Numbered from the stretch's first letter, positions 16,053 to 31,372 are shown. The stretch: DNA of 64,000 nucleotides from Patescibacteria group bacterium (GCA_023379025.1 JAMCTH010000009.1:213318-277317), one strand, 5' to 3'. Notes: generated by a model not told the origin, from the letters alone. Numbers and translations are program-made.

Positions 16053-19000
16053 ATGGAGCTGACAGGAATCCGGGAGACGGTATTTCTCGACCGTTACGCC
16101 CTTAAAGACGAAGCGGGCAAGCCGATGGAACAAACTCCCGAGGAAATGTGGCGGCGCGTGGCGCACGCCATATCGCTGGTTGAGCCGAAAACCAAGCAGG
16201 CGTATTGGGAGGAGCAGTTTTATAAAGCGATGGAGCAGTTCGTGTTCGTGCCCGGCGGGAGGATTTTGTCCGGAGCAGGCACGGGCTATAAGGTGACCTT
16301 TTATAACTGCTTCGTGATCCCTTCTCCCCACGATTCCCGCGGCGGAATTCTCAAAACGCTTGCGCAGATGGTAGAGATCATGTCCCGCGGCGGCGGCGTG
16401 GGGATCAACCTCTCGAGCCTCCGGGCCCGCGGCGCGCGCGTAAAGAAGGTCAACGGATTTTCGTCCGGACCGTGCAACTGGGCGGAACTGTTCAGTGTGG
16501 CAACCCGGGACATCATCCAGCAGGGCGGAAGCCGGCGCGGCGCGCTCATGCTCATGCTCTGGGACTGGCACCCCGATATTGAGGAATTCATAACGGTCAA
16601 ACAGGATTTGTCCCGGATAAACGGCGCGAACCTTTCCGTGTGCGTCTCGGATGCCTTCATGGAGGCAGTCAAGACCGACGGCGACTGGGAGCTCAAATTT
16701 CCCGATATCGACGATCCGGAGTATGACACCAAGTGGGACGGGTATCTCCCCAACTGGATTGCCCTCGGAAAAAAGGTTCACGTCTATAAAACCGTGAAAG
16801 CCCGGGCACTTTGGGATCTTATCGCAAAATCCGCCTGGCGGAGCGCCGAGCCCGGCGTCGTCTTCATGGAGCGCTATAACAAGTGGTTCAACAATTATTA
16901 CTGGGAATATGTCAACTGCGTCAATCCATGCGTGACAAAAGATACATTGGTTTCAACGACCCGGGGAATGAAAACTATCAAAGACTTGTATCGTGATGGG
17001 AAACCCTTTATGGTGCTTGTTGACGGAAAGAACTATCTCTCCTCACCAGTGTTTAGCACAGGTACCAAAAAGGTGTATCGGTTGGTAACGAAAGAAGGCT
17101 ACCAAATACGATTGACCCGAGATCATAAGGTATATACGCCTACGGGAAAAGTCGCTGCTGGCAGCCTGGTTAAGGGGAATAAGATTGTATTGGGCAAAGG
17201 TGGAGCATTTGGAGTGCGTGGGACAGTAGAAGAAGGCCAGGTTTTAGGTTGGTTAGTGGGCGACGGAAGCATGAAAGCTGATGTAGCGACGCTCTATTTT
17301 TATGAGCAGGAGAAGGAAGAGCTGGCTCCGGGATTTGCAGCAATGGTGGATGCTATGGTTGGCGGCGAACAAGTGGTGTCGCGCTCCTATAGCATTGGTC
17401 CTCAATACGTTCCACAGGAAAATAAGGCAATCGTAGAGTCGGTGCGTTTATGGCGGGTGGCCCAACAATACGGCATAACGCACGAAAATAAATATGTCGT
17501 TCCAAAAGCGGTGTTTCTCGGAAGTGAGGCAATGCAAAGAGGATATCTGCAGGGGTTGTTCTCAAGTGACGGTCATGTAGAGGGCAACCGTGAAAAAGGG
17601 GTTAGCGTTCGGTTGACATCCGTGAATAAAATGCTTTTGGTGGGAGTTCAACAGTTGTTACTCAATTTTGGGATTGTAAGCACGATATATGAAAATCGAA
17701 GGAGCGCGGGCAAACGTCTCCTGCCGGATGGTCGCGGTGGACACCGGGAATACGTTTGTCAGGCTTACCACGATTTAGTGATTTCAAAGACGGACCTACA
17801 TCTGTTCGGAAGTCTTATCGGATTTTTGCAGGTGAAGAAACAAGAGAAGCTGAGAACGCTTTTGGCTACATATGTACGCGGACCGTACCGTAAATCATTT
17901 ACGGCAACATTTGATCATTTGGATGAAGAGGGGAGAGAAGATGTTTTTGATATTACTGTCGCTTCCGTGCATAAGTTTGTTGCAAACGGACTTACCGTTT
18001 CAAATTGCGGAGAAGAGGGGCTTCCGAACTGGGGCGTATGCAACCTGTGCTCCATAAATCTTGCGGCCCTCGTCAATGAGGCCGGAGAAATGAATTATAA
18101 ACGGCTCGCGGAGGTCGCCAAAACCGGCGTGCGCTTCCAGGACGACGTTATTGACAGCGACTTTTACGTCTTCCCGGAAATCAAAAAGCGCCAGCTGGAA
18201 GGGGAGCGCCGCATCGGGCTCGGAACCATGGGACTGGGGGACGCGCTTATCAAGATGAGGCTCCGCTACGGCTCGCAGGAAAGCCTTTCGGTCATCGATA
18301 AAATCTACCGGACAATCCGGGACGCGGCCTATGAGGCCTCCGTCGATATTGCGGAAGAAAAAGGCGCATTTCCGGGCATGGATACGGACCAGCACCTCGA
18401 GGCGTATTTTATCAAGCAGCTTCCGGAAGAGATCCGCCGCCGCATGAAAAAACACGGGGTCAGGAATTCCGTCATTCTCCAGCAGGCGCCGACGGGGTCG
18501 ACATCGCTTCTGGCCGGAGTTTCGAGCGGGATCGAACCGGTGTACGAGTTTGAATTCATCCGGCGTGACCGGCTGGGCGAGCACCGGCTGCGCCACCCTC
18601 TCTACGATGCATGGGTCGACGGATATAAAAGGGCGCACGACGGACAGGAGCCGCCAAAGGAAGCGCGTCCGGATTATTTCGCGTCGGCAAACGATCTGAC
18701 GCCGGAGGACCATGTCTATGTACAGGCCGCGATCCAGAAATACGTCGATGCCTCAATCAGTAAAACCGTCAACGCGCCCAAGGCCCACTCTGTCGAGGAC
18801 GTGAAGCGGCTGTACACTCTGGCCTACGAACTCGGGTGTAAAGGCATCACCTACATGAGAGCCGAGAGCAGGCCCGGCGTCCTTACGCGCGTGGACGAGG
18901 ATACACACCGCGAGGGAAAGCCCGACGGAAACGCCAATGTCCAGGTAGGATCGCAGTATGTCCCGGAGGTCAAACCCCGTCCGATGGTCGTTCACGGCTC

Positions 19001-19625
19001 GACCTATCAGGTGGAGACGCCGGTCGGGCAGGCGTATGTCACGATCAATACCAACGGCGGCAACCAGCCGGTTGAACTCTTTGTCAATGTCGGAAAAGCG
19101 GGAAGCGATGTGACCGCGATGGCAGAGGCCATGGGCAGACTGATTTCCCTGATGCTGCGCATCGCCTCCCCCATACCTCCGATGGAGCGTGCCAAAAAGA
19201 TCGCGGCGGAGCTTATCGGCATCGGGGGGGCGCGAAGCCTCGGATTCGGGGAAAACCGGGTACGGAGCCTGCCGGACGCGGTTGCCAAGATTATCGACCG
19301 TCACTTCGGCTTCTTTGCCAAACATAAACTTGTCAATACCGATGCAATTGAGCCGGCACCCGCAGCGGGAAGTACGAACGGACACGGCGTGCCTGCCGCA
19401 GCCGCGGACGGCCGCCTGCCGCAAGAAGCCGGTACCGGAACCCATGAGGCAGGCGGACGAGAGGAGGGAAGCATCGCCGCACAGCAGCCGCTCTTCGGCA
19501 TGACCATAGCTCCTCCGGACAAACGCATGGTGACCGTCGACCTGTGCCCCAACTGCGGGGAGGGGAGTCTCGTGTTTGAGGAATCCTGCAAGAAGTGCTA
19601 CAGCTGCGGGTACTCGGAATGCTAG
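16053..19625 (+). CDS. nrdJ: class II (adenosylcobalamin-dependent) ribonucleotide reductase, intein-containing
   Basis: RNR class II catalytic region with C-terminal zinc ribbon CPNCGEGSLVFEESCKKCYSCG; interrupted by an in-frame intein (see separate feature). Confidence 0.85.
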   Translation: MELTGIRETVFLDRYALKDEAGKPMEQTPEEMWRRVAHAISLVEPKTKQAYWEEQFYKAMEQFVFVPGGRILSGAGTGYKVTFYNCFVIPSPHDSRGGILKTLAQMVEIMSRGGGVGINLSSLRARGARVKKVNGFSSGPCNWAELFSVATRDIIQQGGSRRGALMLMLWDWHPDIEEFITVKQDLSRINGANLSVCVSDAFMEAVKTDGDWELKFPDIDDPEYDTKWDGYLPNWIALGKKVHVYKTVKARALWDLIAKSAWRSAEPGVVFMERYNKWFNNYYWEYVNCVNPCVTKDTLVSTTRGMKTIKDLYRDGKPFMVLVDGKNYLSSPVFSTGTKKVYRLVTKEGYQIRLTRDHKVYTPTGKVAAGSLVKGNKIVLGKGGAFGVRGTVEEGQVLGWLVGDGSMKADVATLYFYEQEKEELAPGFAAMVDAMVGGEQVVSRSYSIGPQYVPQENKAIVESVRLWRVAQQYGITHENKYVVPKAVFLGSEAMQRGYLQGLFSSDGHVEGNREKGVSVRLTSVNKMLLVGVQQLLLNFGIVSTIYENRRSAGKRLLPDGRGGHREYVCQAYHDLVISKTDLHLFGSLIGFLQVKKQEKLRTLLATYVRGPYRKSFTATFDHLDEEGREDVFDITVASVHKFVANGLTVSNCGEEGLPNWGVCNLCSINLAALVNEAGEMNYKRLAEVAKTGVRFQDDVIDSDFYVFPEIKKRQLEGERRIGLGTMGLGDALIKMRLRYGSQESLSVIDKIYRTIRDAAYEASVDIAEEKGAFPGMDTDQHLEAYFIKQLPEEIRRRMKKHGVRNSVILQQAPTGSTSLLAGVSSGIEPVYEFEFIRRDRLGEHRLRHPLYDAWVDGYKRAHDGQEPPKEARPDYFASANDLTPEDHVYVQAAIQKYVDASISKTVNAPKAHSVEDVKRLYTLAYELGCKGITYMRAESRPGVLTRVDEDTHREGKPDGNANVQVGSQYVPEVKPRPMVVHGSTYQVETPVGQAYVTINTNGGNQPVELFVNVGKAGSDVTAMAEAMGRLISLMLRIASPIPPMERAKKIAAELIGIGGARSLGFGENRVRSLPDAVAKIIDRHFGFFAKHKLVNTDAIEPAPAAGSTNGHGVPAAAADGRLPQEAGTGTHEAGGREEGSIAAQQPLFGMTIAPPDKRMVTVDLCPNCGEGSLVFEESCKKCYSCGYSEC
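16929..18005 (+). mobile_element. intein with LAGLIDADG homing-endonuclease domain inside nrdJ
   Basis: Begins at Cys after ...YVNCVNP, ends ...HKFVANGLTVSN followed by extein Cys+1; two LAGLIDADG-type motifs (GWLVGDGSM, GYLQGLFSSDGHV); the 359-codon insert is visibly more AT-rich than the flanking extein. Confidence 0.75.
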
Positions 19626-19722: not shown

Positions 19723-20301
19723 ATGCCGATCTATACCCGTACCGGAGACAGCGGCGAGACATCCCTTTTCGGCGGCAAACGGGTCCTCAAGTGCCATGAA
19801 CTTGTGGATGCGTACGGTTCTCTGGACGAACTCAACAGCTGGGTAGGACTGGTTATTTCCGGCCCGCTCACGGGCGAACAGAAGCAGTTTTTTACGACGG
19901 TCCAGTCTGACCTTTTTCTCCTGGGGTCGGGTCTTGCGGGATGGCCGGCAGATCTTTCTCCGCTTGCAACCCGAATCCCCCGGATAGAAGGTGAAATAGA
20001 TGCGATGGAGGCAAAGCTTCCGGCGCTTGCCAACTTCATTCTTCCCGGCGGCTCGCCCTATGCCGCGTATGCCCATATTACGCGCAGCATCTGCCGCAGG
20101 GTGGAGCGGCAGGTGGTTGCCCTCCGGGGAAAGCAGGAGGTCGACCCCGGGATTGTCCCGTACCTCAACCGGTTGTCGGACTTGTTTTTTGTCCTGGCCA
20201 GGTCTATAAATAGTGACGCACACATCGGGGAAACGGTTTGGACCGGTATTCCCCGGAATATAAACAATAGACACGTAAAGAACAAGAGGAACTCCGTGTA
20301 A
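19723..20301 (+). CDS. PduO-type ATP:cob(I)alamin adenosyltransferase
   Basis: N-terminus MPIYTRTGDSGETSLFGGKRV is the hallmark of the PduO/MMAB family; sits directly after the B12-dependent nrdJ. Confidence 0.7.
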   Translation: MPIYTRTGDSGETSLFGGKRVLKCHELVDAYGSLDELNSWVGLVISGPLTGEQKQFFTTVQSDLFLLGSGLAGWPADLSPLATRIPRIEGEIDAMEAKLPALANFILPGGSPYAAYAHITRSICRRVERQVVALRGKQEVDPGIVPYLNRLSDLFFVLARSINSDAHIGETVWTGIPRNINNRHVKNKRNSV

Positions 20302-20472
20302 ATCGGAGGCTGTGCCGCAACGGTGACAACGAAAAGCCCGGAACTCTTCTTTACGCAATATCCCGAGCAGGAGCACGACGCAATAAGCGGATAGGACAAT
20401 AAACCATACACGGATAAGGAAGAGGATCCATGATTCCTTATGGGTTTATTGGATGATTGGCTTATGGAGCAC

Positions 20473-20498
20473 CCTCCCGACCGGGAGGGATTTTTTTG
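20473..20498 (+). terminator. rho-independent terminator
   Basis: CCCTCCCG-ac-CGGGAGGG hairpin followed by a T7 run, immediately before a GGAGGAG RBS and the ATG at 20511. Confidence 0.45.
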
Positions 20499-20510
20499 GA
20501 GGAGTATCCT

Positions 20511-22466
20511 ATGCCGGCAGATTGTGAATGCAAAAACGAAACCTGGAAAATTTCCTACGACGACGACGTTGCCACGGTTAAGGCGGTGTATCCGCACTGG
20601 ACGGATCACGAAGTGCGGCTGGAAGCGGCCCGGCTGTTCCGGCCGAAATATGCTTCTGACCGTTTATCGGTCGAGCATGAGTCGTCAGCTTTGGATGAAT
20701 ATGATACCGGTGTCACGTTTACCGTGGAGGGGGAACAACTGATTTACACAAGCGGCGGATACGAAGGCATGGGCATTGAGGATTTCAGTCTGCGCCAGCG
20801 GCGGCTTACGCCGGAGAAGTATTCGCTGCGGGATCACCAGACATCCCTTGCTCTTCAGGAAGCATTTGTGCGCGGCGCCCGCCGTGTCGTAACGTCCTAC
20901 TGGCGCGAAGGGGATGATGTCCGGGATATCGTTGAGATGCGCTATGATCCGGAAGCGCGGGAGGGGCATATTTTCATCAGGAATACCACCGGGGGCGGAC
21001 AGAATCATACGTATACTGAAATCCAATCCATTGCGCAGACACAGTTCCGCGACTTTCATGCCGTCCGTCCCACAGAAGGCATATTTCTCCTGACCGATAT
21101 CAGGATAGACGAGGGCGTTTTTCGGAGGACAGTTTCCAGAGTCCAGAATGCGGAATTGCCGGAGGACCGGTCTGCTGACGACAGATCCCGGATCCGTGAA
21201 GCGCCCCGGGCGCTGATCCGGAGCGAAAGCGCGCCGGAACCGTCCCAGAACGCGCGTTTCGTCCGGGCAGCGCATCCGGCAGTTTCTGAACTGCCCTACA
21301 CCATCGCAGCGCGTACGATACGCGAAACGCGGGAGACGGTACGGAGGGTGGCCGACCGGCTGGCGACAACGTCCGCCAACCGGAAGTCGGCCAAGGAACC
21401 GCATCCGGACTCCGGGGGGAAGAAACCTGCGCACGGGGTGCACGTCCGTGGGTATGGCGCGGAGTCCGGTGATGCGATCAAACGCCGGGGGTTCAGACGA
21501 CGGGAGCGCAGACATCCTGAGCAGGTAGGTGCCAGAGGGCGCAGACGACATGGTACACCCTTCCTGACCCGGGCGGAGACCACTTCCCTTCCTGTTTTCG
21601 GGCGACGGGGAGCCGGCAGAATGCAGCAGAAACCGGAAACCGAATTCTTCTTTGGTGCCGATTCCGCAAAGCGACGCATATTGCAGGAACGGAAATACCA
21701 GGAAGCGGGTACACCGCTCCGTGCGGCTGAAAGGACAAACCGTACGCATACAAAAGACCGGAAGGGGAGAACGCCGGCTGCTCCGGTTCGGAGAGGATCA
21801 GAACGGACTGCCCGGGGTAAACCGCAACGGGAGATACTCCGCCATACGTCCCGTGGTCCGGTGGCAGCGGAACGGGTGCTGAAACGCCGCAAGGAGCGGC
21901 CGGCCCGCAGGGTTCTGGCTCAGCTGCTGGCCCGTGCCGGATTTGGCAAAGAGCGTGCGGCACCCCGCGACGCAGCGGGGAAACGGGTAACAGAACGGAG
22001 GCATCAGGCGCCGTGTGAAGTAAACCATACGGCGGAGACCGGCGCGGGGCGGGAAAGATTCCCGGTCAGCGGCGGGGAGAAGGCCGCCGTGCTTAGCCGG
22101 TGTCTTCTCCTCTGGTTCCTTTGGGACGGACTGCGGACAAAAAATAAGCCTTCAAACCAGTTTTCCGGGCCGAATCGGGAGAAAACGGTTCGGCACGTTT
22201 CCGGTCGTACGCCGGGTCGTGGAAGCCCGGTATATTCACGGGAGGAGGGGATCCGCGTTGGTCAGGAGGAAGCATCACGCGGGCCCACATATCTTCTTTT
22301 GGCCATCATTTGGTATCTCGCGATGCTTCGGGAACAGGGGATACGCAACATCCCCGGTTCTTTTCACCCGGCGTCCGCCGCAAGGACACAGAACAAGCGG
22401 AGAAGACGCACCGGAAACAGACGGCACATTCCGCAGTGCGGCATAATCTTTCTGGCCCGTTCATGA
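20511..22466 (+). CDS. hypothetical protein: ~230-aa globular N-terminal domain plus ~400-aa Arg-rich low-complexity tail (coding status of the tail uncertain)
   Basis: Start trimmed to the ATG 6 nt after a strong RBS; N-terminal part has ordinary composition (VKAVYPHWTDHEVRLEAARLF...); the tail is very R/A/G/P-rich, all opposite-strand frames are also open, and a GGGGAT-N7-ATCCCC hairpin sits at 22337-22364 inside the ORF. Confidence 0.35.
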   Translation: MPADCECKNETWKISYDDDVATVKAVYPHWTDHEVRLEAARLFRPKYASDRLSVEHESSALDEYDTGVTFTVEGEQLIYTSGGYEGMGIEDFSLRQRRLTPEKYSLRDHQTSLALQEAFVRGARRVVTSYWREGDDVRDIVEMRYDPEAREGHIFIRNTTGGGQNHTYTEIQSIAQTQFRDFHAVRPTEGIFLLTDIRIDEGVFRRTVSRVQNAELPEDRSADDRSRIREAPRALIRSESAPEPSQNARFVRAAHPAVSELPYTIAARTIRETRETVRRVADRLATTSANRKSAKEPHPDSGGKKPAHGVHVRGYGAESGDAIKRRGFRRRERRHPEQVGARGRRRHGTPFLTRAETTSLPVFGRRGAGRMQQKPETEFFFGADSAKRRILQERKYQEAGTPLRAAERTNRTHTKDRKGRTPAAPVRRGSERTARGKPQREILRHTSRGPVAAERVLKRRKERPARRVLAQLLARAGFGKERAAPRDAAGKRVTERRHQAPCEVNHTAETGAGRERFPVSGGEKAAVLSRCLLLWFLWDGLRTKNKPSNQFSGPNREKTVRHVSGRTPGRGSPVYSREEGIRVGQEEASRGPTYLLLAIIWYLAMLREQGIRNIPGSFHPASAARTQNKRRRRTGNRRHIPQCGIIFLARS

Positions 22467-22478
22467 TATGATGACAGT

Positions 22479-22952
22479 ATGAATGATCTGCCCGTTCAGC
22501 CCGTCAATAGCGGATCCGGTGCAGGGGCAAACGTCCCCTCTCCTGTCCCGGGTTTAACGCCGGCTCCGATATCTGCCGCCGCGGGAAGTATCGGAACGAA
22601 GGAGCGGGAAAGCGGTTCGGCACGAAGCAGGGAATATCCGCAAATCCGGGAGATCGGGCGCGAAACGGAACTTCCTCCCGAGGTAGCTCGGGCAGGGGTC
22701 AGAATCCAGCCGACTCCCGTGCCCCTGCCGACAAAACTATCGCCGGTTCCGGTGCCGGCTCCCGCGGCACCAGCAGGTCAGCCCCCGGCCATCGCGCTTC
22801 CGTTGACGGACGATCAAATCGCACAGGGCCTGCATCAGAGTATTGTGAGCTCCTGGCGATGGCTTGCCGAATGGTGTCTCAGGAAACTAAAGCAAGTTCA
22901 TGTGACCATTAAATCCATGGGCGGAAAAACGGTTGAGGTAAAAATAAAATAG
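22479..22952 (+). CDS. Pro/Ala-rich hypothetical protein with C-terminal amphipathic segment
   Basis: 157-aa ORF, PVPxP repeats, C-terminal QGLHQSIVSSWRWLAEWCLRKL; directly upstream of the membrane ATPase. Confidence 0.4.
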   Translation: MNDLPVQPVNSGSGAGANVPSPVPGLTPAPISAAAGSIGTKERESGSARSREYPQIREIGRETELPPEVARAGVRIQPTPVPLPTKLSPVPVPAPAAPAGQPPAIALPLTDDQIAQGLHQSIVSSWRWLAEWCLRKLKQVHVTIKSMGGKTVEVKIK

Positions 22953-22974
22953 AACCGTCACCAACGCTATTTTT

Positions 22975-25326
22975 ATGCCGGATCAATTTAGTAATCTTAT
23001 TTTTCAATTGGAAGTTTTGGGAGTAAGCGTCATTGTTATGCTTATCTGTCTTGCGGGGCTTGCTGCACTTGGGTTTGCCGCGTTTCTTCTCTGGAAGTAT
23101 CGCGATCGGGAGGATCGGTCACTCGAGTATGTGCTTCTTCAGATCGCGGTACCAAGAGATAATGAAATAAAGATAGATGTCGCAGAACAATTATTTGCAA
23201 GCCTTTACAGTATCCACCACGGTGGCTTTTGGTCATTTTTGAAACCTCAGGAACACGCATCCTTTGAAATTGTGGCCAAACACGAGGATATTCGGTTTTA
23301 CGTTTCCGTTCACCGGAAACTTATGGACCTTGTGGAAAAACAAATACATGGGGCATATCCAGGGGCTGATATCCGTCAAGTTGACGAATACACCATTTTT
23401 ACGCAAACCGGCAAGGTTGCATTCGCCGCACTAAAATTGAAAAACGCCGATTTTTTTCCGCTCCGGGTATATCGGGATTTACCAACGGATCCGTTGTCAC
23501 TTTTAACGTCAGTCCTTGCAAAAATGGGGGAGGAAGAGGGAGCTGTCGTTCAGGTGCTTATTCAACCAGCGGAAGGCAAGTGGCGAAAATTCGGCCGCTC
23601 ATATATTTCCAAGACAAAGAAGGATGAGGCAAATCCGGAAAAAGCAAGCTTTAAAGTTGATCAAAAGACTCTCGAGGCAATTGAACAAAAGACGAGTAAA
23701 CCCGGATTTAATACCGTGGTCCGGCTTGTCGTATCGTCACCGACTCAGGAGGCTGCCAAGATGCACCTTGACAATTTGCTCTCAGCGTTCAGTCAGTTTT
23801 CTTCAGACAACAATAATTTCACCAAGGTAAAACATCCGATTAAAAAATTGTTTATGGTCGATTTTATCTATCGATACTTTCCGGTATGTAATCTGCCGTT
23901 TTTTAGCCAATACAGCGTCCTCAATAGCGATGAACTTGCGACCGTGTACCATCTTCCCAATAAATCCGTCGAAACGGCGCATATATTTTGGCTTAATGCA
24001 AAACGAGCACCGGCGCCTTCACAAATTCCGACTGCCGGTTTATATCTCGGTATTTCCCGTTATCGGGGAGTTGATCGGCCAATTTATGTCGGTGATGATG
24101 ACAGGAGACGGCATGTCTATATCATCGGGAAGACCGGTACAGGGAAATCACAACTTCTTGAAGAGATGGTGATGCAGGATATTAACGCCGGTCGCGGCGT
24201 TGCGGTTATCGATCCACACGGTGATCTCGTTGAAGGAATTCTCTCACGTGTGCCGGCAGCACGGGCCGAGGACGTCATCTATTTCGATCCGGGTGATTCC
24301 GAACGCCCGATGGGCCTCAATATGCTTGAAGCATCGACGGAACAGCAGAAACATTTTGTGGCGACATCGATCGTCGGACTCATGTACAAACTCTACGACC
24401 CCATGAAAACCGGCATCATCGGTCCCCGGTTCGAGCACGCCATCAGGAATGCCATGCTGACGGTCATGGAGGCAGTCGATCACGGGACATTTATCGAAGT
24501 TGTCCAGACACTCCAGCGGCCGGATTTTGTTCAGGAACTTCTTCCAAAAGTGCAGGATCCGATCGTACGCAGATATTGGACCGATCAGATCGCGCAAACC
24601 GCTGATTTCCATAAGTCGGAAGTCCTGGATTACATCGTCTCCAAGTTCGGGCGCTTTGTCACCAATAAACTCATGCGCAACATCATCGGGCAGTCCTATT
24701 CCTCGTTTGATTTCCGTAAGGTCATGGATGAAGGGAAAATCCTCCTGGTCAACCTTGCCAAGGGGAAACTCGGCGAGGAAAACAGCAATTTTCTGGGGCT
24801 TATCCTTGTGCCGCGGATTCTCGTTTCGGCGATGAGCCGGCAGGAAATGCCCGAGGAGAAGCGCCGCGATTTTTATCTGTATGTCGACGAGTTTCAGAAT
24901 TTCGCAACGCCGGATTTTGCCCAGATCCTTTCCGAAGCGCGCAAATACCGACTCAACCTTATCGTTGCCAACCAGTTTATCGGACAGATGGAGGAGGAGG
25001 TGAAAAATGCCGTATTCGGCAACGTCGGCTCGCTTATCTCCTTCCGTGTCGGCGTGACGGATGCCAATTACCTTCAGCACGAGTACCAGCCGACGTTTAA
25101 CGAGACGGACCTCATCAATATCGATAAATATAATGCCTATGTGAAAACTATCGTCCGCAACGAACCGGTGAAACCCTTCAGCATGGATCTGACGAAAGAC
25201 ATGGCCAAAGTCAACAGTCTCAAAAATCCCGAGATTGCTGCCGCCATCGTTCAGCTCTCGCGCCTCAAGTACGGAAGATCACGCGAGATCGTAGAAGCGG
25301 AGATCAGTCAGCGCGCCAGACTGTAA
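22975..25326 (+). CDS. membrane-anchored P-loop ATPase of the VirB4/VirD4 (conjugative transfer / DNA-translocase, AAA_10/TraG-D_C-like) superfamily
   Basis: N-terminal TM hairpin (LEVLGVSVIVMLICLAGLAALGFAAFLLW); Walker A YIIGKTGTGKSQ followed by VIDPHGD; Walker B context FYLYVDEFQNF; 783 aa. Confidence 0.6.
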   Translation: MPDQFSNLIFQLEVLGVSVIVMLICLAGLAALGFAAFLLWKYRDREDRSLEYVLLQIAVPRDNEIKIDVAEQLFASLYSIHHGGFWSFLKPQEHASFEIVAKHEDIRFYVSVHRKLMDLVEKQIHGAYPGADIRQVDEYTIFTQTGKVAFAALKLKNADFFPLRVYRDLPTDPLSLLTSVLAKMGEEEGAVVQVLIQPAEGKWRKFGRSYISKTKKDEANPEKASFKVDQKTLEAIEQKTSKPGFNTVVRLVVSSPTQEAAKMHLDNLLSAFSQFSSDNNNFTKVKHPIKKLFMVDFIYRYFPVCNLPFFSQYSVLNSDELATVYHLPNKSVETAHIFWLNAKRAPAPSQIPTAGLYLGISRYRGVDRPIYVGDDDRRRHVYIIGKTGTGKSQLLEEMVMQDINAGRGVAVIDPHGDLVEGILSRVPAARAEDVIYFDPGDSERPMGLNMLEASTEQQKHFVATSIVGLMYKLYDPMKTGIIGPRFEHAIRNAMLTVMEAVDHGTFIEVVQTLQRPDFVQELLPKVQDPIVRRYWTDQIAQTADFHKSEVLDYIVSKFGRFVTNKLMRNIIGQSYSSFDFRKVMDEGKILLVNLAKGKLGEENSNFLGLILVPRILVSAMSRQEMPEEKRRDFYLYVDEFQNFATPDFAQILSEARKYRLNLIVANQFIGQMEEEVKNAVFGNVGSLISFRVGVTDANYLQHEYQPTFNETDLINIDKYNAYVKTIVRNEPVKPFSMDLTKDMAKVNSLKNPEIAAAIVQLSRLKYGRSREIVEAEISQRARL

Positions 25327-26852: not shown

Positions 26853-26924
26853 GCGCCCGTAGCTCAGCGGCAGAGCGCGTGTCTTATAAACACGAGGCGC
26901 TTGGATCGTCACCAAGCGGGCGCA
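26853..26924 (+). tRNA. tRNA-Ile (anticodon TAT / UAU)
   Basis: Manual cloverleaf: acceptor GCGCCCG/CGGGCGC, D-arm GCTC-AGCGGCA-GAGC, anticodon stem CGTGT/ACACG with loop CTTATAA (U33, A37), T-arm CTTGG-ATCGTCA-CCAAG, discriminator A; T-loop is atypical (A54, U58). Confidence 0.55.
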
Positions 26925-26944
26925 CAGAATTCAGTTATTCAATT

Positions 26945-27526
26945 ATGGATATACCCCACGTCAAACAAACGGAAGAAGAGGTAGTGGTGTTGGTCGATGA
27001 AGACAATCACGAGATCGGTACGGCGCCGAAAGCGACAGTTCATGCCAATAATACGCCATTACACCGGGGTTTTTCATTATTTCTATTTAATTCCAAAGGT
27101 CAATTGTTATTGACCCGTCGCGCCCTAACAAAAAAGACCTTTCCCGGTGTCTGGACGAATACAGTATGCGGCCATCCCGGGCCGGGGGAGAGTGTAGAAG
27201 ATGCCGCAAGAAGAAGGCTATATGAGGAGTTGGGAGTTTCATTAGGGTTGAACCCTGGCGCCCAGGGTTCAACCCTGTCGCAGAACATAAGAGTTGTCAC
27301 CCCGTATTGCTATCGTTTTGCGGATCAAAACGGGATTGTAGAAAACGAGATCTGTCCTGTATTAGTGGCACATGCCGATGTTGAGCCTCATCCGAACAAA
27401 GCAGAAATTGAGGAATGGAAGTGGATAGACTGGCAGGAATTTCTTAACGAGGTTGAAACCCTGCCTCAGAAGTATTCTCCATGGAGTAGAGAAGAAACGA
27501 GGCTTCTTACAGCTCTTCCAGCTTGA
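26945..27526 (+). CDS. idi: isopentenyl-diphosphate delta-isomerase, type 1 (NUDIX fold)
   Basis: IDI-1 motifs FSLFLFNSKGQLLLTRRALTKKTFPGVWTNTVCGHP and YEELG; the track ORF starts upstream inside the tRNA and is trimmed to MDIPHV. Confidence 0.7.
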   Translation: MDIPHVKQTEEEVVVLVDEDNHEIGTAPKATVHANNTPLHRGFSLFLFNSKGQLLLTRRALTKKTFPGVWTNTVCGHPGPGESVEDAARRRLYEELGVSLGLNPGAQGSTLSQNIRVVTPYCYRFADQNGIVENEICPVLVAHADVEPHPNKAEIEEWKWIDWQEFLNEVETLPQKYSPWSREETRLLTALPA

Positions 27527-28370
27527 CGTTTTCGGCGGCTTTCCCTTTGACGAGTTCGAGATATTTTTCCGTTGTCGAGAGGCGTTTGTGACCGACGAGT
27601 TTAGAGAGCGTCGTGATAGGCGTGCCCGCCATGAGGTGATGGGCGATGAAGGTGTGCCGGAGGTCATTGACTTTGGCATCCTCAATGCCCGCGACGCGAA
27701 AATAGCGGTCAATAGCCGTGCGGATATTCCGGATCAGGAGCGGTTTGCCGGTTTTGGTAATAAACAGGGCTGACGACCCTTCTTTCCCCCGGATTTCCAG
27801 GTATTTACCAAGTGCTTCCTTGGCGGCCTTATTGAGGGGGACCATGCGTTCCGCATGACCCTCCTGGGCCGCAATATGGAGTTCCGTTTCCCGGACGTCT
27901 TCCGTCGTCAGATTGGCAAGCTCGCCGATACGCACTCCCGTCTGGAGAAAGAGCTCTACGATGGCATACGTCCTGACATCTCCGCGGCAGGCATCCCGAA
28001 GCGCCCGGTATTCGAGTTTGGAAAGGATGCGCGGCGGTTTCACTTCGTATTTGGGGTGTTCGATTTCGACTGCCGGATCCAGAGTGATAATACCGGAAGC
28101 CTTTAGGTATCGGAAAAAGGTTTTTATGGAATTGATCTTACGGGAGACGGACTTTGCCTTGTAATTGTCTGAGTTGAGCTTCTTGATGAACGCGTCAAGC
28201 TCTTCACGGCTTACGTCCCCGATGGTCTTTTTGCCCATGTTGGTGAGGAATGAGACCAATTGATCGATGTCTTTGCCGTATGCTACGATGGTAGCGCGGG
28301 CACGCCGGAGGCTCCCGAGGTATTCGGTAAACTGTCCGTGAGCAGCTTTGAGATCAAGTGCGGTAGCCAT
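27507..28370 (-). CDS. tyrosine recombinase (XerC/XerD-like integrase)
   Basis: N-terminal SAM-like core-binding domain, catalytic region with R...HxxR...Y (LRHTFIAHHLMAG...STTEKYLEL); 287 aa; lies between two convergent tRNA genes. Confidence 0.75.
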   Translation of the reverse strand: MATALDLKAAHGQFTEYLGSLRRARATIVAYGKDIDQLVSFLTNMGKKTIGDVSREELDAFIKKLNSDNYKAKSVSRKINSIKTFFRYLKASGIITLDPAVEIEHPKYEVKPPRILSKLEYRALRDACRGDVRTYAIVELFLQTGVRIGELANLTTEDVRETELHIAAQEGHAERMVPLNKAAKEALGKYLEIRGKEGSSALFITKTGKPLLIRNIRTAIDRYFRVAGIEDAKVNDLRHTFIAHHLMAGTPITTLSKLVGHKRLSTTEKYLELVKGKAAENVKLEEL

Positions 28371-28862: not shown

Positions 28863-29282
28863 ATGGAATTGACATTTGGGCCGGTCCAACCGATAGGGAT
28901 CAACAAAATACATGCTCGAGAAGCGGAACAGGCAAGTGGTGCCGTTCTCAGAACGGATTTTTTCTGGCTGAATGATCAAACTCAGCGGGCTATAGTCGAC
29001 CTCTTGCGAGAAATGGCACTGCGTATAGATGGGGATGACGCTACACAAGCACAAGCGTATTATGACGCCGTTTTAAATAGCCATAGGAATGAAAGAGAAA
29101 TACTCGTTAGAGATGAACAGGATGTCGATTGGTCCGAAGTACAGCATTATATATGTACCAGCTGTTTTACTATATGGCATGACATGGAACCGCCTGAACT
29201 TGTTGCCAGGCGCGTGGGGTCGGAATATACCGCGTATTGGGGGCTTATGGAGATGGGGCCAACGTGGGACGATTTGTTCTAA
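28863..29282 (+). CDS. hypothetical protein
   Basis: 139-aa ORF, no recognisable motifs. Confidence 0.3.
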   Translation: MELTFGPVQPIGINKIHAREAEQASGAVLRTDFFWLNDQTQRAIVDLLREMALRIDGDDATQAQAYYDAVLNSHRNEREILVRDEQDVDWSEVQHYICTSCFTIWHDMEPPELVARRVGSEYTAYWGLMEMGPTWDDLF

Positions 29283-29307
29283 CAGAAAACCATCCCATTA
29301 ATCCAAG

Positions 29308-29379
29308 TGCCAGGGGAGAGGATCGGACTCTCGACCGTCACCTTATGAAGATGCTGCTCTACCGCTGAGCTACCCTGGC
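29308..29379 (-). tRNA. tRNA-Met (anticodon CAT; elongator Met or lysidine-type Ile2 cannot be distinguished)
   Basis: Reverse complement folds as acceptor GCCAGGG/CCCTGGC, D-arm GCTC-AGCGGTA-GAGC, anticodon loop TTCATAA on a 4-bp stem with one G·A mismatch, T-arm GAGAG-TCCGATC-CTCTC, discriminator A. Confidence 0.6.
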
Positions 29380-29564
29380 CTGAAGTACGTGCTTATTTTA
29401 CGGAAATTACGGGTGAAAGGCAATCAATGAGCAGGAGAACTGAGGTGATTTATAAGGGTGAGGGAGTCTATGGACATGAAGATTTTCAGGATGCATTTCT
29501 CCAGAATACCCCTTTGGGTTGTTGCCAAAAGACTCTCAATGCGCGGACTTTCTGTGCACGTTCC

Positions 29565-29618
29565 GGGTCCGGGAGCCCTTTCGACTCAAAGACCCGCTCA
29601 GGATAAACTACTCCTCCC
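29565..29618 (+). repeat. module-2 repeat copy A (GGGTCCGGGAG...CTCAGGATAAACTACTCCTCCC)
   Basis: About 70% identical over 54 nt to copy B at 32809-32862 (aligned by eye); preceded at 29525-29546 by CCAAAAGACTCTCAATGCG, which matches the left arm of the 32872-32902 hairpin. Confidence 0.5.
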
Positions 29619-29669
29619 GGCAGGAGGTGCAAATAAAAATCCTCCATAATGAGGGTCTTTATTATATCT

Positions 29670-29703
29670 GTTGCGGGGAGTACAAGAACTTAGAACCTAT
29701 TAT
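29670..29703 (+). repeat. R1: 34-nt direct repeat GTTGCGGGGAGTACAAGAACTTAGAACCTATTAT (tRNA 3'-half-like on minus strand)
   Basis: Family of four close copies (R1-R4), all same orientation; reverse complement ends CCCCGCAAC like the 3' end of the initiator-like tRNA at 32910-32979. Confidence 0.55.
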
Positions 29704-29803
29704 CTTCAAGATTTGCCCAATACAACTTAGCAGTTGCAGATTTTAATATATAAAGTCAATGCTGATTGAGGTAAAATAGGCCGTCTTAACAATCTAAATG
29801 TAA

Positions 29804-29837
29804 GTTGTGTGGAGTACGAAAAATTGGAACCTATCAG
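29804..29837 (+). repeat. R2: GTTGTGTGGAGTACGAAAAATTGGAACCTATCAG
   Basis: Second copy of the R family, 35 bp upstream of the radical-SAM fragment ORF. Confidence 0.5.
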
Positions 29838-29872
29838 TTGACCGTTTACATCTTTTTCCACTAGTTTAGCCC

Positions 29873-30673
29873 GTGAGCGATTCAGATTGTACTATTCTCC
29901 TTGGGGAACTCACCGAGGTTTTGGAAGTACAATTTGATTCTCCGCCTGATTACAGTTTATTCAAAGGAGAAAAATGTATCCCAAGACTCATGTTGAGCGA
30001 TGGCTGTTTATTCCGTTGTTCTTTTTGTACCGTCCCCACCACATTAACAGTCGTATCTCCTGGGAAAATAGAAGAACAGGTAGAGGAACTTAAGGTTCTT
30101 GATTTTAAGCTCATTTTTATCAATGATAAATCATTTGGACAAGCCAAAAATTGGCGAGCAATACGCGAAGTTTTCGAGCAAGTACATAGATACAATCAAG
30201 ATTTCTTAGGATTTATCGTCCAAACGCCTCCCAGTTTAGCTTTAAAGGATCGACTGATGGAAGCTGCGGTCGATTTAGGAGTAAAATATATGGAGTTTGG
30301 AGTAGAAACGGTCAGTGATGAACATCTTGCGTTGTTTAATAAGCCTTATCGTGTAAAACATTTAGATGAAGCATGTGAACGAGCACGGCGATTAGGACTC
30401 AAGATTATCCCAAATTTTATCTTAGGAATTCCTGGAGATGATTACAAGGCAACCATTGAATGGGTGACGAGAAATAGAGATATTATTCCTGTTGTCAATA
30501 TTAACTTTTTAGCGCTTCATTTTGGGAATATGCGAGGTAGACTGCCATGGCAGTCACAGACGTTAGGCGATCGAGATCAAAACGTGGCGAAAAAGTCATG
30601 GCTTTCCCAGGATGACCTAGCTCGCATGAGAGATGCCATGGAAACTATATATGCAATCACCTCAGGGAGCTAA
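29873..30673 (+). CDS. radical SAM domain protein, apparently N-terminally truncated (B12-binding radical SAM-like core without the B12 domain)
   Basis: CxxxCxxC motif CLFRCSFC at aa 45-52 preceded by the typical IPRLMLSDGC context; only ~30 aa upstream of the cluster instead of a cobalamin-binding domain; begins right after repeat R2. Confidence 0.5.
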   Translation: MSDSDCTILLGELTEVLEVQFDSPPDYSLFKGEKCIPRLMLSDGCLFRCSFCTVPTTLTVVSPGKIEEQVEELKVLDFKLIFINDKSFGQAKNWRAIREVFEQVHRYNQDFLGFIVQTPPSLALKDRLMEAAVDLGVKYMEFGVETVSDEHLALFNKPYRVKHLDEACERARRLGLKIIPNFILGIPGDDYKATIEWVTRNRDIIPVVNINFLALHFGNMRGRLPWQSQTLGDRDQNVAKKSWLSQDDLARMRDAMETIYAITSGS

Positions 30674-31343: not shown

Positions 31344-31372
31344 GTTTTAGGTTCTGATTTGTTGTAAGCCCT

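What the first reader, a model, noticed from the sequence alone, without database searches (positions are those of the whole stretch)
20511..22466. ORF with ~400-aa arginine-rich tail in a region open on both strands; internal terminator-like hairpin
After a clean terminator (20473-20498) and a strong RBS, an ORF starts at 20511. Its first ~230 aa look like an ordinary folded domain. The remaining ~400 aa are extremely R/A/G/P-rich (e.g. RRGFRRRERRHPEQVGARGRRRHG, KRRKERPARRV). Across this stretch the opposite strand also carries 350-, 200- and 150-aa ORFs, and a perfect GGGGAT-N7-ATCCCC hairpin followed by GGTTCTTTT lies inside the ORF at 22337-22364. Two readings are possible. (i) It is a real protamine-like, nucleic-acid-condensing or pilot protein, plausibly cargo of the adjacent DNA-translocase-like ATPase module; such Arg-rich proteins typify viral cores and conjugative relaxosome accessories. 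(ii) The tail is not coding at all: a GC-rich structured RNA, or a decayed gene whose spurious frame is kept open by CCGG-rich composition.
Basis: partly seen in the sequence, partly recalled or inferred. Interest (0 to 1): 0.62.

Follow-up and report, generated by a model that had tools for sequence, protein, structure and literature searches.

The report
B12-riboswitch-controlled protein with charged linker
The arginine-rich "tail" is a real, translated, disordered linker in a conserved but uncharacterised protein of Gottesmanbacteria, and the gene is switched by a vitamin B12 riboswitch together with an orphan conjugation-type (VirD4-like) ATPase, a link not found in the literature searched here.

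Summary
The "non-coding" reading is rejected.

**The gene.** ORF 20511-22466 (651 aa; NCBI hypothetical M1555_04600, Patescibacteria) belongs to a family of at least 210 sequence clusters with no Pfam model. The architecture is conserved:
- an N-terminal fold of about 215 aa (AF2 pLDDT 93, no PDB or BFVD fold match);
- a charged, mostly disordered linker of about 220-515 aa;
- a C-terminal module with two short hydrophobic helices, the motif IIWYLAMIREQG, a basic tail and a terminal GVIF.

**The tail is translated.** N- and C-terminal modules are conserved in one frame. That frame is stop-free for 435 codons (0 of 2000 shuffles). The linker is basic in 56 of 89 relatives and acidic in 33. It is therefore a polyelectrolyte spacer, not a protamine. 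Arginine is the GC-rich version of the Lys/Arg mix seen in relatives.

**Side features.** The antisense ORFs and the internal hairpin are by-products of composition.

**New finding.** The "clean terminator" is the expression platform of an AdoCbl riboswitch (20275-20354). This riboswitch precedes the family gene in every locus that holds the upstream DNA. Some loci carry a second riboswitch for adjacent B12-binder/permease genes.

**Likely role.** The protein is most likely a B12-starvation-induced partner of the downstream small protein and T4CP-like ATPase. Its biochemical function is unknown.

The parts
16053..19625 (+). Class II (B12-dependent type) ribonucleotide reductase carrying a LAGLIDADG intein; conserved upstream neighbour.
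   Evidence: Pfam hits Ribonuc_red_lgC, lgN, TSCPD, LAGLIDADG_3 and Intein_splicing. Residues 294-648 are missing from the L001 and other homologues.
19723..20301 (+). PduO-type ATP:cob(I)alamin adenosyltransferase; its last ~27 nt overlap the riboswitch aptamer.
   Evidence: Pfam Cob_adeno_trans, E 3.8e-51. Conserved position in related loci.
20275..20354 (+). AdoCbl riboswitch aptamer.
   Evidence: Rfam RF01689, 38.8 bits against a gathering score of 36.5. My own covariance model R1 scores 107.9 bits over 20265-20383. Covariation across 13 loci: helix 3 is 95% paired, 4 of 5 of its pairs carry compensatory changes, and 0 of 500 shuffles reach the observed score.
20361..20375 (+). Conserved post-aptamer motif TCCCGAGCAGGAGCA. 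In some relatives its AGGAG is the Shine-Dalgarno of the first regulated gene.
   Evidence: Motif found in 9 of 13 locus types. It lies 3-5 nt before the ATG in L008, L001, L014 and L017.
20472..20497 (+). Hairpin CCCTCCC-GACC-GGGAGGG followed by T7. Read here as the riboswitch-controlled terminator/attenuator that abuts the ORF start.
   Evidence: Best terminator-like site in the region. An equivalent hairpin plus T-run sits directly before the family gene's ATG in L007, L010, L013, L015, L019, L011, L023, L033 and L057.
20498..20504 (+). Ribosome-binding site GGAGGAG, 6 nt before the ATG.
   Evidence: Sequence.
20511..22466 (+). Gene X: 651-aa protein (NCBI M1555_04600) of an uncharacterised Gottesmanbacteria family.
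   Evidence: Identical database entry P0001. 210 representative clusters at E<=1e-3. No match in Pfam, NCBIfam, PHROGs or PADLOC.
20511..21158 (+). N-terminal globular domain (aa 1-216): a long helical hairpin plus a mixed alpha/beta sheet, with an N-terminal CxC and the conserved motifs GAxxVVTSY and R138-D139.
   Evidence: AF2 pLDDT 92.8. 50% identity to P0002 and P0005. Invariant and near-invariant columns. Foldseek best E 0.047 with TM<=0.26 in PDB and nothing significant in BFVD.
21291..21392 (+). Predicted long helix (aa 261-294) at the start of the linker.
   Evidence: Full-length AF2 model, pLDDT about 85. A few family members align here in frame.
21411..21890 (+). Arg-rich, disordered core of the linker (aa 301-460; R 21%, net charge +29).
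   Evidence: pLDDT below 45 throughout. Composition. Weak codon-usage signal, but the ORF frame is still best or tied best of six.
22071..22142 (+). First short hydrophobic helix of the C-terminal module (aa 521-544, AAVLSRCLLLWFLWDGL).
   Evidence: AF2 helix, pLDDT 68-75. Family consensus FSxAxxxWxLL. Kyte-Doolittle 19-residue mean below 1.3, so not a classical transmembrane segment.
22281..22334 (+). Second hydrophobic helix carrying the family signature (YLLLAIIWYLAMLREQG).
   Evidence: Aligned in frame with P0002, E 3e-7. Nearly invariant W, L, I, I, L, R, E and G. 108 family tblastn hits cover this stretch.
22335..22463 (+). Basic C-terminal tail ending in IPQCGIIF (family consensus PxxGVIFA).
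   Evidence: In the family the tail has a median length of 37 aa and a median net charge of +6.5. Alignments.
22337..22364 (+). Internal hairpin GGGGAT-N7-ATCCCC followed by GGTTCTTTT, inside the codons for QGIRNIPGSF. Judged incidental.
   Evidence: Weak terminator-like match. No comparable structure at the same position in 10 homologous loci: -0.5 to -9.5 kcal/mol against -21.6 here.
20685..21963 (-). Three overlapping antisense ORFs (20685-21749, 21296-21892, 21493-21963). Judged spurious.
   Evidence: No family hits. No tblastn hits on the minus strand. Lengths are within the codon-shuffle expectation.
22479..22952 (+). Gene Y: 157-aa protein with N-terminal MNDLP, a Pro/Ala-rich middle and the conserved C-terminal helix WRWLAEWCLRKLKQ. 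It starts 12 nt after X.
   Evidence: Conserved directly after X in nearly all loci that extend that far. No database family.
22975..25326 (+). Membrane-anchored T4CP-like (VirD4/TraD/TrwB-type) P-loop ATPase with DUF8128. It starts 22 nt after Y.
   Evidence: Pfam TrwB_AAD_bind, DUF87, T4SS-DNA_transf and TraG-D_C, all above their cut-offs. DUF8128 in orthologues. One strong transmembrane segment at aa 14-32. 75-81% identity across the L001-L019 loci.

Best explanation
ORF 20511-22466 is a genuine protein-coding gene (X).

SHOWN
- X has three parts: a conserved N-terminal globular domain of about 215 aa; a highly charged linker of about 300 aa that is mostly intrinsically disordered; and a conserved C-terminal module. 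That module holds two short hydrophobic helices, the IIWYLAMIREQG signature, a basic tail and a terminal GVIF.
- The linker here is arginine-rich because the local DNA is GC-rich.
- X lies directly behind an AdoCbl riboswitch. The riboswitch's terminator/SD-sequestering hairpin abuts the start codon of X.
- This riboswitch-X pairing holds in every related locus where the upstream DNA is available.

INFERRED
- When AdoCbl is plentiful, transcription coming from the RNR-PduO genes, or from a promoter near their end, stops at the hairpin.
- When AdoCbl is scarce, transcription reads through into X, the small protein Y and the membrane-anchored T4CP-like ATPase. The tight gene spacing suggests these three are made together and assemble.
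- In that assembly the C-terminal module of X docks at the membrane or the ATPase. The polyelectrolyte linker acts as a long flexible tether or a threadable segment. The N-terminal domain does the specific job.
- X is therefore a B12-starvation-induced adaptor or substrate of the ATPase. Its most likely purpose is scavenging corrinoid. The alternative is securing deoxynucleotides when the B12-dependent RNR stalls.

My confidence by layer: coding and architecture about 0.95; B12-riboswitch control about 0.85; partner of the ATPase about 0.6; specific physiological role at most 0.3.
For: CODING
- Only the ORF's frame is stop-free. The tail stayed open in 0 of 2000 shuffles.
- In L001, L022 and L023, as in the window, the linker frame has 0 stops while the other sense frames have 5-26.
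- N- and C-terminal modules are conserved in frame with P0002 and P0005.
- 210 representative clusters, mostly 500-800 aa long.
- All family tblastn hits fall in the ORF frame.

LINKER
- AF2 pLDDT is below 45 for aa 300-460.
- Across 89 relatives the median linker length is 357 aa; 56 linkers are basic and 32-33 acidic.
- The R:K balance follows locus GC. P0013/L021: GC 0.37, R 7%, K 22%. P0055/L022: GC 0.47, R 13%, K 15%. P0097/L023: GC 0.56, R 14%, K 7%. The window gene: about 62% GC, R 20%, K 5%.

RIBOSWITCH
- Rfam hits at or above the gathering score in the window, L008, L012 and L011.
- Covariation across 13 loci.
- Model R1 finds the element on the X strand in 33 further loci at 44-108 bits.
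- L031 and L033 have one riboswitch before DUF4430-DUF6580 and a second directly before X.
- L034/L035 have a riboswitch only before X.
- L011 keeps riboswitch plus X without RNR, PduO, Y or the ATPase within 7 kb.
- A hairpin plus U-run abuts X's ATG in many loci.

OPERON
- Gaps of 12 and 22 nt.
- The order X-Y-ATPase is conserved in about 40 loci.

B12 CONTEXT
- RNR and PduO lie upstream.
- The B12-binder-type DUF4430 (PMC4350170) and the membrane protein DUF6580 are inserted in about a third of loci.

ORPHAN T4CPs
- T4CP homologues encoded away from virB4 are common in Patescibacteria and their function is open (PMC12102498).
Against: - No expression or ligand-binding data exist.
- In the window I could not find a convincing anti-terminator pairing.
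- The ATPase is about 80% identical between species, which suggests a core function that one might not expect to be shut off by B12. It may have its own promoter.
- The window protein lacks the mid-linker motif (ETGVGIGAA) present in many relatives.
- Codon-usage support in the linker is weak, 0-0.06 bits per codon.
- No close relative was found, so purifying selection on this particular linker could not be measured.
Confidence: 0.6

Rival explanations
1. DNA-handling reading, close to the first reader's reading (i). The polycationic linker binds DNA, and X hands DNA to, or is pushed with DNA through, the T4CP-like translocase. B12 control then makes sense as a 'B12-independent route to deoxynucleotides': when the AdoCbl-dependent RNR cannot work, the cell imports or mobilises DNA instead.
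For: - The ATPase belongs to the DNA-translocase-related T4CP/FtsK/HerA group.
- 56 of 89 family linkers are strongly basic.
- The locus sits among nucleotide-metabolism genes: NrdR, RNR, HD, NUDIX, nucleoside phosphorylase, a nuclease, GMP synthase.
- From established knowledge: cobalamin riboswitches repress B12-independent substitutes such as metE and nrd isozymes.
Against: - 33 of 89 relatives have an acidic linker of the same length (NCPR -0.08). Among them are some of the window protein's nearest relatives, P0002 and P0004. DNA binding therefore cannot be the conserved role of the linker.
- Arg is only about 20% and is interspersed with 12% D+E.
- No relaxase and no recognisable DNA-binding domain was found.
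- No homologue on plasmids or phages.
Confidence: 0.15
2. Incidental regulation. The riboswitch really serves the B12 uptake genes (DUF4430-DUF6580) or terminates the RNR-PduO operon. X-Y-ATPase merely lie downstream and have nothing to do with B12. X is a generic tethered accessory of a housekeeping ATPase.
For: - DUF4430-DUF6580 sit between the riboswitch and X in about a third of loci.
- The aptamer overlaps the end of PduO.
- The ATPase is very highly conserved.
Against: - L031 and L033 carry a second riboswitch dedicated to X.
- L034/L035 have a riboswitch only in front of X and none before DUF4430, even with filters off.
- L011 keeps riboswitch plus X in an unrelated neighbourhood.
- The terminator/SD hairpin is fitted to X's start codon in many lineages.
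- The aptamer shows compensatory changes, so it is under selection at this position.
Confidence: 0.15
3. The ~400-aa tail is not translated. It is a GC-rich structured RNA or a decayed gene whose frame is open by composition.
For: - Weak codon-usage signal in 21260-21860.
- Long antisense ORFs.
- The mid-linker family motif is missing.
Against: - The frame stayed open in 0 of 2000 shuffles.
- The C-terminal signature is conserved in frame, downstream of the whole tail.
- The family-wide architecture is the same.
- No Rfam match in the tail.
- The antisense ORFs are explained by codon composition.
Confidence: 0.02

Closest known systems
Cobalamin (AdoCbl) riboswitch regulons (Rfam clan CL00101: RF00174, RF01482, RF01689)
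   Same: The aptamer scores at or above the Rfam gathering score and shows covariation. It lies 5' of the regulated gene on the same strand. It is followed by a terminator or SD-sequestering hairpin, as in classical OFF switches. It sits next to B12-dependent RNR, PduO and, in some loci, a transcobalamin-type binder (DUF4430).
   Different: The regulated genes are not a recognised B12 transporter, biosynthesis gene or B12-independent isozyme. They are an unknown tethered protein, a small protein and a T4CP-like ATPase. The aptamer overlaps the 3' end of the preceding gene, so it may act as a conditional terminator within a longer transcript.
Type IV coupling proteins (VirD4/TraD/TrwB) with their adaptors and substrates, including the 'orphan' T4CP homologues of Patescibacteria (PMC12102498)
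   Same: The downstream ATPase passes the Pfam cut-offs for TrwB_AAD_bind, T4SS-DNA_transf and TraG-D_C and has an N-terminal membrane anchor. X is encoded next to it, evolves fast, is largely disordered and ends in a positively charged tail. These features are typical of T4CP clients (recalled from general knowledge, not tested).
   Different: No relaxase, VirB4 or other channel genes were seen in the parts of the window that I annotated. X has no known effector or relaxosome domain. Riboswitch control of a T4CP has not, to my knowledge, been described.
Long charged or Pro-rich disordered linkers that tether a globular domain to a membrane or motor module (for example the FtsK linker or the TonB Pro-Glu/Pro-Lys spacer); recalled from general knowledge
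   Same: Length is conserved (median about 350 aa) while sequence is not. The fraction of charged residues is high (0.29-0.37). AF2 predicts disorder. The sign of the charge can flip between orthologues while the flanking modules stay conserved.
   Different: There is no sequence relationship. The anchor here is a pair of short hydrophobic helices below the usual transmembrane threshold, at the C-terminus. The function of the tethered domain is unknown.
Protamines and Arg-rich viral core or nucleic-acid-condensing proteins
   Same: Local runs such as RRGFRRRERRH and KRRKERPARR; net positive charge; disorder.
   Different: Arg is about 20% rather than above 50%. Acidic residues are common. A third of orthologues are net negative. 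The context is chromosomal and there are no viral or plasmid homologues.

Membership tests
Cobalamin riboswitch (Rfam CL00101) | Covariance-model score at or above the curated gathering threshold | tested here: met
   Window: RF01689, 38.8 bits against 36.5. L008: RF01689, 38.7. L012: RF00174, 38.1 against 31.5. L011: RF00174, 36 against 31.5. L001 is below threshold: RF01482, 30.7 against 50.
Cobalamin riboswitch (Rfam CL00101) | Base-paired helices supported by compensatory changes among homologues | tested here: met
   13 loci: 76.5% of cells paired against 60.8% in shuffles. 12 of 19 pairs show changes on both sides. Covariation score 0.443 against 0.170, reached by 0 of 500 shuffles. Slid controls score lower. 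The P1 helix is partly misaligned between the two leader types.
Cobalamin riboswitch (Rfam CL00101) | Located in the 5' leader of the regulated gene with an expression platform (terminator or SD sequestration) | tested here: met
   Same strand and 43-240 nt upstream of X in every locus that holds that DNA. A hairpin plus U-run abuts the ATG. The anti-terminator was not identified.
Cobalamin riboswitch (Rfam CL00101) | Binds adenosylcobalamin and represses expression | not testable with these tools
   Needs in-line probing or ITC, and reporter assays.
Protamine-like / Arg-rich nucleic-acid-condensing proteins | Very high arginine content with few acidic residues | tested here: not met
   R is 19.7% and D+E 11.6% in the linker. 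Net charge per residue is +0.13.
Protamine-like / Arg-rich nucleic-acid-condensing proteins | Positive charge conserved among orthologues | tested here: not met
   33 of 89 orthologue clusters have acidic linkers (pI below 6).
Substrate or adaptor of a type IV coupling protein | Encoded with, and co-expressed with, a T4CP | tested here: met
   The order X-Y-ATPase with 12- and 22-nt gaps is conserved in about 40 loci. Co-expression is inferred, not measured.
Substrate or adaptor of a type IV coupling protein | Unstructured, positively charged C-terminal signal | tested here: inconclusive
   The tail after REQG has a median of 37 aa and a median net charge of +6.5 across 90 members. No defined consensus was available to test against.
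Substrate or adaptor of a type IV coupling protein | Physical interaction with the T4CP, and translocation | not testable with these tools
   Needs pull-down, two-hybrid or multimer modelling. Only single-chain prediction was available.
Type IV coupling protein (for the neighbour at 22975-25326) | N-terminal membrane anchor, P-loop NTPase domain and T4CP-specific domains above Pfam cut-offs | tested here: met
   TrwB_AAD_bind 36.7 bits (cut-off 20.5), T4SS-DNA_transf 28.8 (20.1), TraG-D_C 23.9 (22). Transmembrane segment at aa 14-32. The NCBIfam TraD/VirD4 models match only far below their cut-offs.
Type IV coupling protein (for the neighbour at 22975-25326) | Association with a relaxase or a VirB4-type channel locus | tested here: not met
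   None among the window genes I annotated. This agrees with PMC12102498, where only 148 of 5,713 Patescibacterial T4CP homologues lie near virB4.
Structured non-coding RNA in the tail | Match to a described RNA family, or absence of a conserved reading frame | tested here: not met
   No Rfam match at E<=1 in 20100-23000 apart from the riboswitch. The reading frame is conserved.

The most novel reading that the evidence does not exclude
X, Y and the T4CP-like ATPase form a previously unrecognised B12-starvation response machine of Gottesmanbacteria. One version is a corrinoid-piracy device: the ATPase threads or positions X so that its N-terminal domain, on a tether with a contour length of roughly 100 nm, captures B12 from the surroundings or a host. 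The other version is a DNA-import route that supplies deoxynucleotides when the AdoCbl-dependent RNR is idle. Either would give the first physiological role for the thousands of 'orphan' VirD4-like ATPases in Patescibacteria, and the first riboswitch-controlled member of that ATPase class.
Probability: 0.3. Interest if true: 0.85.

Novelty: new variant of a known kind. Interest (0 to 1): 0.55.

Why it matters
As a gene call the finding is ordinary: it is a real hypothetical protein with a disordered linker.

The context is what matters. A cobalamin riboswitch is a reliable pointer to B12-related physiology. Here it is dedicated to an unknown protein that travels with an orphan VirD4-like ATPase.

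Patescibacteria carry thousands of such ATPases, encoded away from any secretion channel and with no known role (PMC12102498). These bacteria cannot make B12, yet in this lineage they depend on a B12-type RNR.

The locus therefore offers a concrete hypothesis that can be tested by experiment: B12 limitation induces X-Y-ATPase. It bears on how ultra-small, host-dependent bacteria obtain a cofactor or its metabolic substitute.

The result also serves as a caution. Arg-rich low-complexity ORFs with long antisense ORFs in GC-rich DNA can be genuine, and a 'terminator plus RBS' junction may be a riboswitch expression platform.

Tried and rejected
1. Frameshift origin of the Arg-rich stretch, for example an acidic GAA-rich linker read out of frame. 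tblastn with P0002 and then with all 150 family members gave hits only in the ORF frame. An HMM of the mid-linker motif found nothing in any of the six frames. Alternative frames of the linkers in L001, L022, L023 and the window all carry 5-26 stops. Rejected.
2. Function from sequence families. Pfam, NCBIfam, PHROGs, PADLOC and a PDB profile search gave nothing for X or Y.
4. The word-index homologue search with the full-length profile was swamped by low-complexity words and returned only 2 proteins. The exhaustive representative search was the useful one.
5. Close relatives for a dN/dS test of the linker. None were found in JGI metagenomes, and the database cluster has a single member.
6. 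C-terminal transmembrane anchor. The hydrophobic helices score below 1.3 on a 19-residue Kyte-Doolittle window, against 2.8 for the ATPase anchor. I therefore do not call them transmembrane.
7. Anti-terminator pairing between the conserved TCCCGAGCAGGAG motif and the terminator's 5' arm. It is convincing in L011 (-16.6 kcal/mol) but not in the window or L023 (-6.1 and -5.0). Left open.
8. Mobile-element context. No homologues in the phage, plasmid or IMG/VR collections.
9. Correlation of linker charge with the presence of DUF4430-DUF6580. None found.
10. DUF4430 or DUF6580 elsewhere in the window. None found.
Full report
**1. What is in the sequence**

The ORF runs from ATG 20511 to TGA 22466 and encodes 651 aa. 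It is preceded by GGAGGAG (20498-20504). Before that lies a 7-bp G+C-rich hairpin (20472-20489) followed by T7.

The tail is Arg-rich. R is 19.7% and A+G+P 28% over aa 217-510. R is 21% with net charge +29 over aa 301-460.

The opposite strand carries ORFs of 354, 198 and 156 aa. The hairpin GGGGAT-N7-ATCCCC plus GGTTCTTTT is at 22337-22364.

**2. Is the tail coding?**

Of the six frames across 20511-22466, only the ORF's frame has no stop. The others have 7-21.

The 435-codon tail (63% GC) stayed open in 0 of 2000 dinucleotide-preserving shuffles. From base composition alone the probability is about 2e-6.

The antisense ORFs are what the codon content produces. Permuting the tail's codons gives a longest antisense run of 195 +/- 47 codons, and 29% of shuffles reach the observed value. 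The 354-aa ORF exists because no TTA, CTA or TCA codon occurs between codons 59 and 430.

A codon-usage log-odds trained on 28 long ORFs of the window puts the ORF frame best, or tied best, of six in all 12 windows. The signal is weak in 21260-21860: 0-0.06 bits per codon, against a mean of 0.24 for ordinary genes. This is expected for a low-complexity region and is not decisive on its own.

The decisive evidence is comparative.
- The protein is identical to NCBI M1555_04600 from a 280-kb Patescibacteria contig.
- Its relative P0002 (691 aa, Gottesmanbacteria) shares the N-terminal domain (50% identity over 216 aa).
- In the same frame, beyond a non-alignable stretch of about 360 aa, P0002 also shares the C-terminal signature: YLLLAIIWYLAMLREQG...IPQCGIIF against WILLAIIWHLAMIREQG...IPHDGVIF (E 3e-7).
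- An exhaustive HMMER search found 210 representative clusters (82 at E<=1e-30), nearly all 500-800 aa long.
- All 224 tblastn hits of these proteins on the window fall in the ORF frame, none in another.
- In L001, L022 and L023, as in the window, the linker's own frame has 0 stops and the other sense frames have 5-26.
- The two short 'homologues' are artefacts. P0057 is cut by a contig end. P0058 has a single in-frame TAA, after which the same frame continues open with typical linker sequence.
- Rfam finds nothing in the tail.

Reading (ii) is therefore rejected.

**3. Anatomy of the protein**

AF2 with an 81-sequence alignment folds aa 5-213 with pLDDT 92.8 and pTM 0.87. The fold is a long helical hairpin followed by a mixed alpha/beta sheet.

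The full-length model adds the following:
- a helix at 261-294 (pLDDT about 85);
- disorder from 300 to 460 (pLDDT below 45);
- helices at 463-475, 521-544 and 591-608.

The last two helices are hydrophobic. They fall below the usual transmembrane threshold, unlike the clear anchor of the neighbouring ATPase.

In the family, the tail after REQG has a median length of 37 aa, a median net charge of +6.5, and ends in PxxGVIFA.

Across 89 clusters with both end modules, the linker has a median of 357 aa and is bimodal in charge. Fifty-six linkers are basic (R+K about 25-30%) and 32-33 acidic. The acidic type usually also has an N-terminal extension (76% against 11%).

Among the window protein's nearest relatives are both an acidic one (P0002) and a basic one (P0005, rich in both R and K).

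The R:K ratio tracks GC content. The 'arginine-rich tail' is thus the GC-rich rendering of a family-typical polycationic linker.

The sign of the charge is not conserved, but the length and the high charge are. The linker therefore behaves as a polyelectrolyte spacer rather than a conserved nucleic-acid-binding surface.

Many relatives carry a mid-linker motif (ETGVGIGAAxxAL). It cannot be detected in the window protein in any frame.

**4. No known family or fold**

**5. The riboswitch**

Rfam places an AdoCbl-II aptamer at 20275-20354 on the same strand. It scores 38.8 bits against a gathering score of 36.5 and overlaps the last codons of the PduO adenosyltransferase gene.

Homologous aptamers occur at the same place in related loci.
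- Rfam hits at or above the gathering score were found in L008, L012 and L011.
- An alignment of 13 loci shows clear compensatory changes: helix 3 is 95% paired, 4 of 5 of its pairs covary, and 0 of 500 shuffles reach the score.
- A covariance model built from that alignment found the element, always on the X strand, in 33 further loci at 44-108 bits. This covers every locus that contains the DNA upstream of X. It includes L057, where the contig begins inside the aptamer.

Four arrangements occur:
- PduO | RS | X, as in the window;
- PduO | RS | DUF4430 | DUF6580 | X;
- PduO | RS | DUF4430 | DUF6580 | RS | X (L031, L033);
- PduO | DUF4430 | DUF6580 | RS | X, with no riboswitch before DUF4430 even with filters off (L034/L035).

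In L011 the riboswitch and X sit together with no RNR, PduO, Y or ATPase within 7 kb. X therefore has its own riboswitch. The association is not a relic of lost transporter genes.

In many loci a hairpin plus U-run abuts X's start codon. Its 3' arm is often the Shine-Dalgarno. In others the conserved motif TCCCGAGCAGGAG supplies the SD directly.

The window's 'clean terminator' (20472-20497) is this element. It is best read as a B12-dependent conditional terminator between PduO and X. I did not find a convincing anti-terminator in the window, so the switching mechanism is inferred from homology and from the general behaviour of cobalamin riboswitches.

**6. Neighbours**

X is followed after 12 nt by Y (157 aa), which has an N-terminal MNDLP and the C-terminal helix WRWLAEWCLRKLKQ. 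After a further 22 nt comes a 783-aa ATPase with one N-terminal transmembrane segment.

The ATPase has DUF8128 in its orthologues. It scores above Pfam cut-offs for TrwB_AAD_bind, T4SS-DNA_transf and TraG-D_C.

The order X-Y-ATPase, followed by an ATP-grasp protein and a tRNA (typed Ile-UAU in the window), recurs in about 40 loci.

The ATPase is 75-81% identical between species, whereas X's N-domain is 29-50% identical. X is thus the fast-evolving partner.

The window is chromosomal. It also encodes GMP synthase, aldehyde dehydrogenase, TyrRS and other housekeeping genes.

A recent survey found 5,713 VirD4-like T4CP homologues in Patescibacteria. Only 148 of them lie near virB4, and the authors suggested exaptation (PMC12102498). 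I found no paper linking riboswitches, B12 and these genes.

**7. Interpretation**

Shown:
- X is a real protein with the three-part architecture;
- a covarying cobalamin-type aptamer with a terminator hairpin sits directly in front of it;
- synteny with Y and the T4CP-like ATPase is conserved.

Inferred:
- AdoCbl represses read-through;
- X, Y and the ATPase are co-expressed and assemble;
- X's C-terminal module docks at the membrane or the ATPase, while the charged linker tethers or threads the N-terminal domain.

The physiological purpose is open. Corrinoid scavenging is favoured by the frequent insertion of a transcobalamin-type binder (DUF4430; PMC4350170) and a membrane protein into the same leader. 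DNA or deoxynucleotide scavenging is favoured by the translocase ancestry of the ATPase, the nucleotide-metabolism neighbourhood, and the known logic that B12 riboswitches repress B12-independent substitutes. It is weakened by the acidic-linker orthologues.

**8. The internal hairpin**

It lies within the codons for QGIRNIPGSF, just after the REQG signature. Ten homologous loci have no comparable structure there. Weak terminator-like matches of this kind are about as common as in shuffled sequence. The conserved C-terminus and the tightly linked downstream genes lie beyond it. I regard it as incidental.

**9. Verdict**

The first-stage observation is confirmed. Of its interpretations, 'real protein, probably working with the ATPase' survives. 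'Protamine-like condenser', 'viral or conjugative' and 'non-coding' do not.

The gene itself is a new member of an unnamed family. The regulatory and genomic context is a new variant of a known kind of system and is worth an experiment: a dedicated B12 riboswitch in front of an orphan T4CP-like module in bacteria that depend on scavenged B12.

Noticed in passing
window 16053-19625 (+), insertion at about 16932-17996: The class II ribonucleotide reductase carries a ~355-aa LAGLIDADG intein (aa 294-648). The intein is absent from most orthologues, and the local GC dips to 0.47. L010 and L013 align across this region, and L010 shows a further gap at residue 159/160.
   Followed up: partly
window 20275-20354 (+); L001-L066: An AdoCbl riboswitch overlaps the 3' end of the PduO gene. 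Two leader designs occur among relatives. In one, the SD lies inside the conserved TCCCGAGCAGGAG motif. In the other, the aptamer is followed by an intrinsic terminator that abuts the ATG. L031 and L033 have tandem riboswitches about 1.1 kb apart in one locus.
   Followed up: yes
window 22975-25326 (+): The T4CP-like ATPase matches phrog_5156 (unknown function) at E 6e-92 over aa 215-780, and the PADLOC model mad8 at E 2e-18. Relatives of this orphan ATPase are therefore also catalogued among phage and defence-candidate proteins.
   Followed up: no
window 26853-26925 (+): tRNA-Ile with anticodon UAU. As I recall, most bacteria decode AUA with a lysidine-modified CAU tRNA instead. Rfam finds a tRNA (type not determined) at the same position after the ATP-grasp gene in the related loci scanned.
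   Followed up: no
L025 1892-2814 (protein P0058): A family member has a single in-frame TAA exactly at the junction of domain and linker. The same frame then stays open for 83 more codons, up to the contig end. This could be a sequencing error, a fresh nonsense mutation or read-through.
   Followed up: partly
Family linkers (for example P0010, P0055, P0066); window 21160-22040: A mid-linker motif (..ETGVGIGAAxxAL..) preceded by a helix is conserved in both acidic and basic family members. It is undetectable in the window protein in any frame.
   Followed up: partly
L057 354-3016; L009 6375-9307: In two loci an extra ORF of ~160 aa sits between the riboswitch/terminator and the X gene; its sequence looks acetyltransferase (GNAT)-like to me, but I did not scan it against any family library. 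X is longer there (735-809 aa). The window's N-domain does not match L057 by tblastn and matches L009 only weakly (29% identity), while the basic linker and C-terminal signature of L057 are retained. The C-terminal module may therefore be the constant part of a broader family.
   Followed up: partly
L011 6767-8950 (Gottesmanbacteria chromosome OY970230.1): A riboswitch (RF00174, 36 bits), a terminator/SD hairpin and gene X occur on their own. No RNR, PduO, Y or ATPase lies within 7 kb. The neighbours include a small PAS protein, a glycosyltransferase and an F420-ligase-like gene.
   Followed up: partly
window 27507-28370 (-) and 29000-33000: A XerC/D-type tyrosine recombinase lies about 580 nt beyond the tRNA-Ile gene. 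It is followed by a low-GC stretch (0.37-0.45) with two tRNA-Met genes, a radical SAM protein, a nucleoside phosphorylase and an Exo_endo_phos nuclease. This may be an island or simply AT-rich genes.
   Followed up: no
L008, L015, L019 record titles: Three MAGs whose record titles say 'uncultured Gammaproteobacteria' carry the same RNR-PduO-riboswitch-X-Y-ATPase block as Gottesmanbacteria, with about 80% ATPase identity. They are probably mislabelled Patescibacteria.
   Followed up: no
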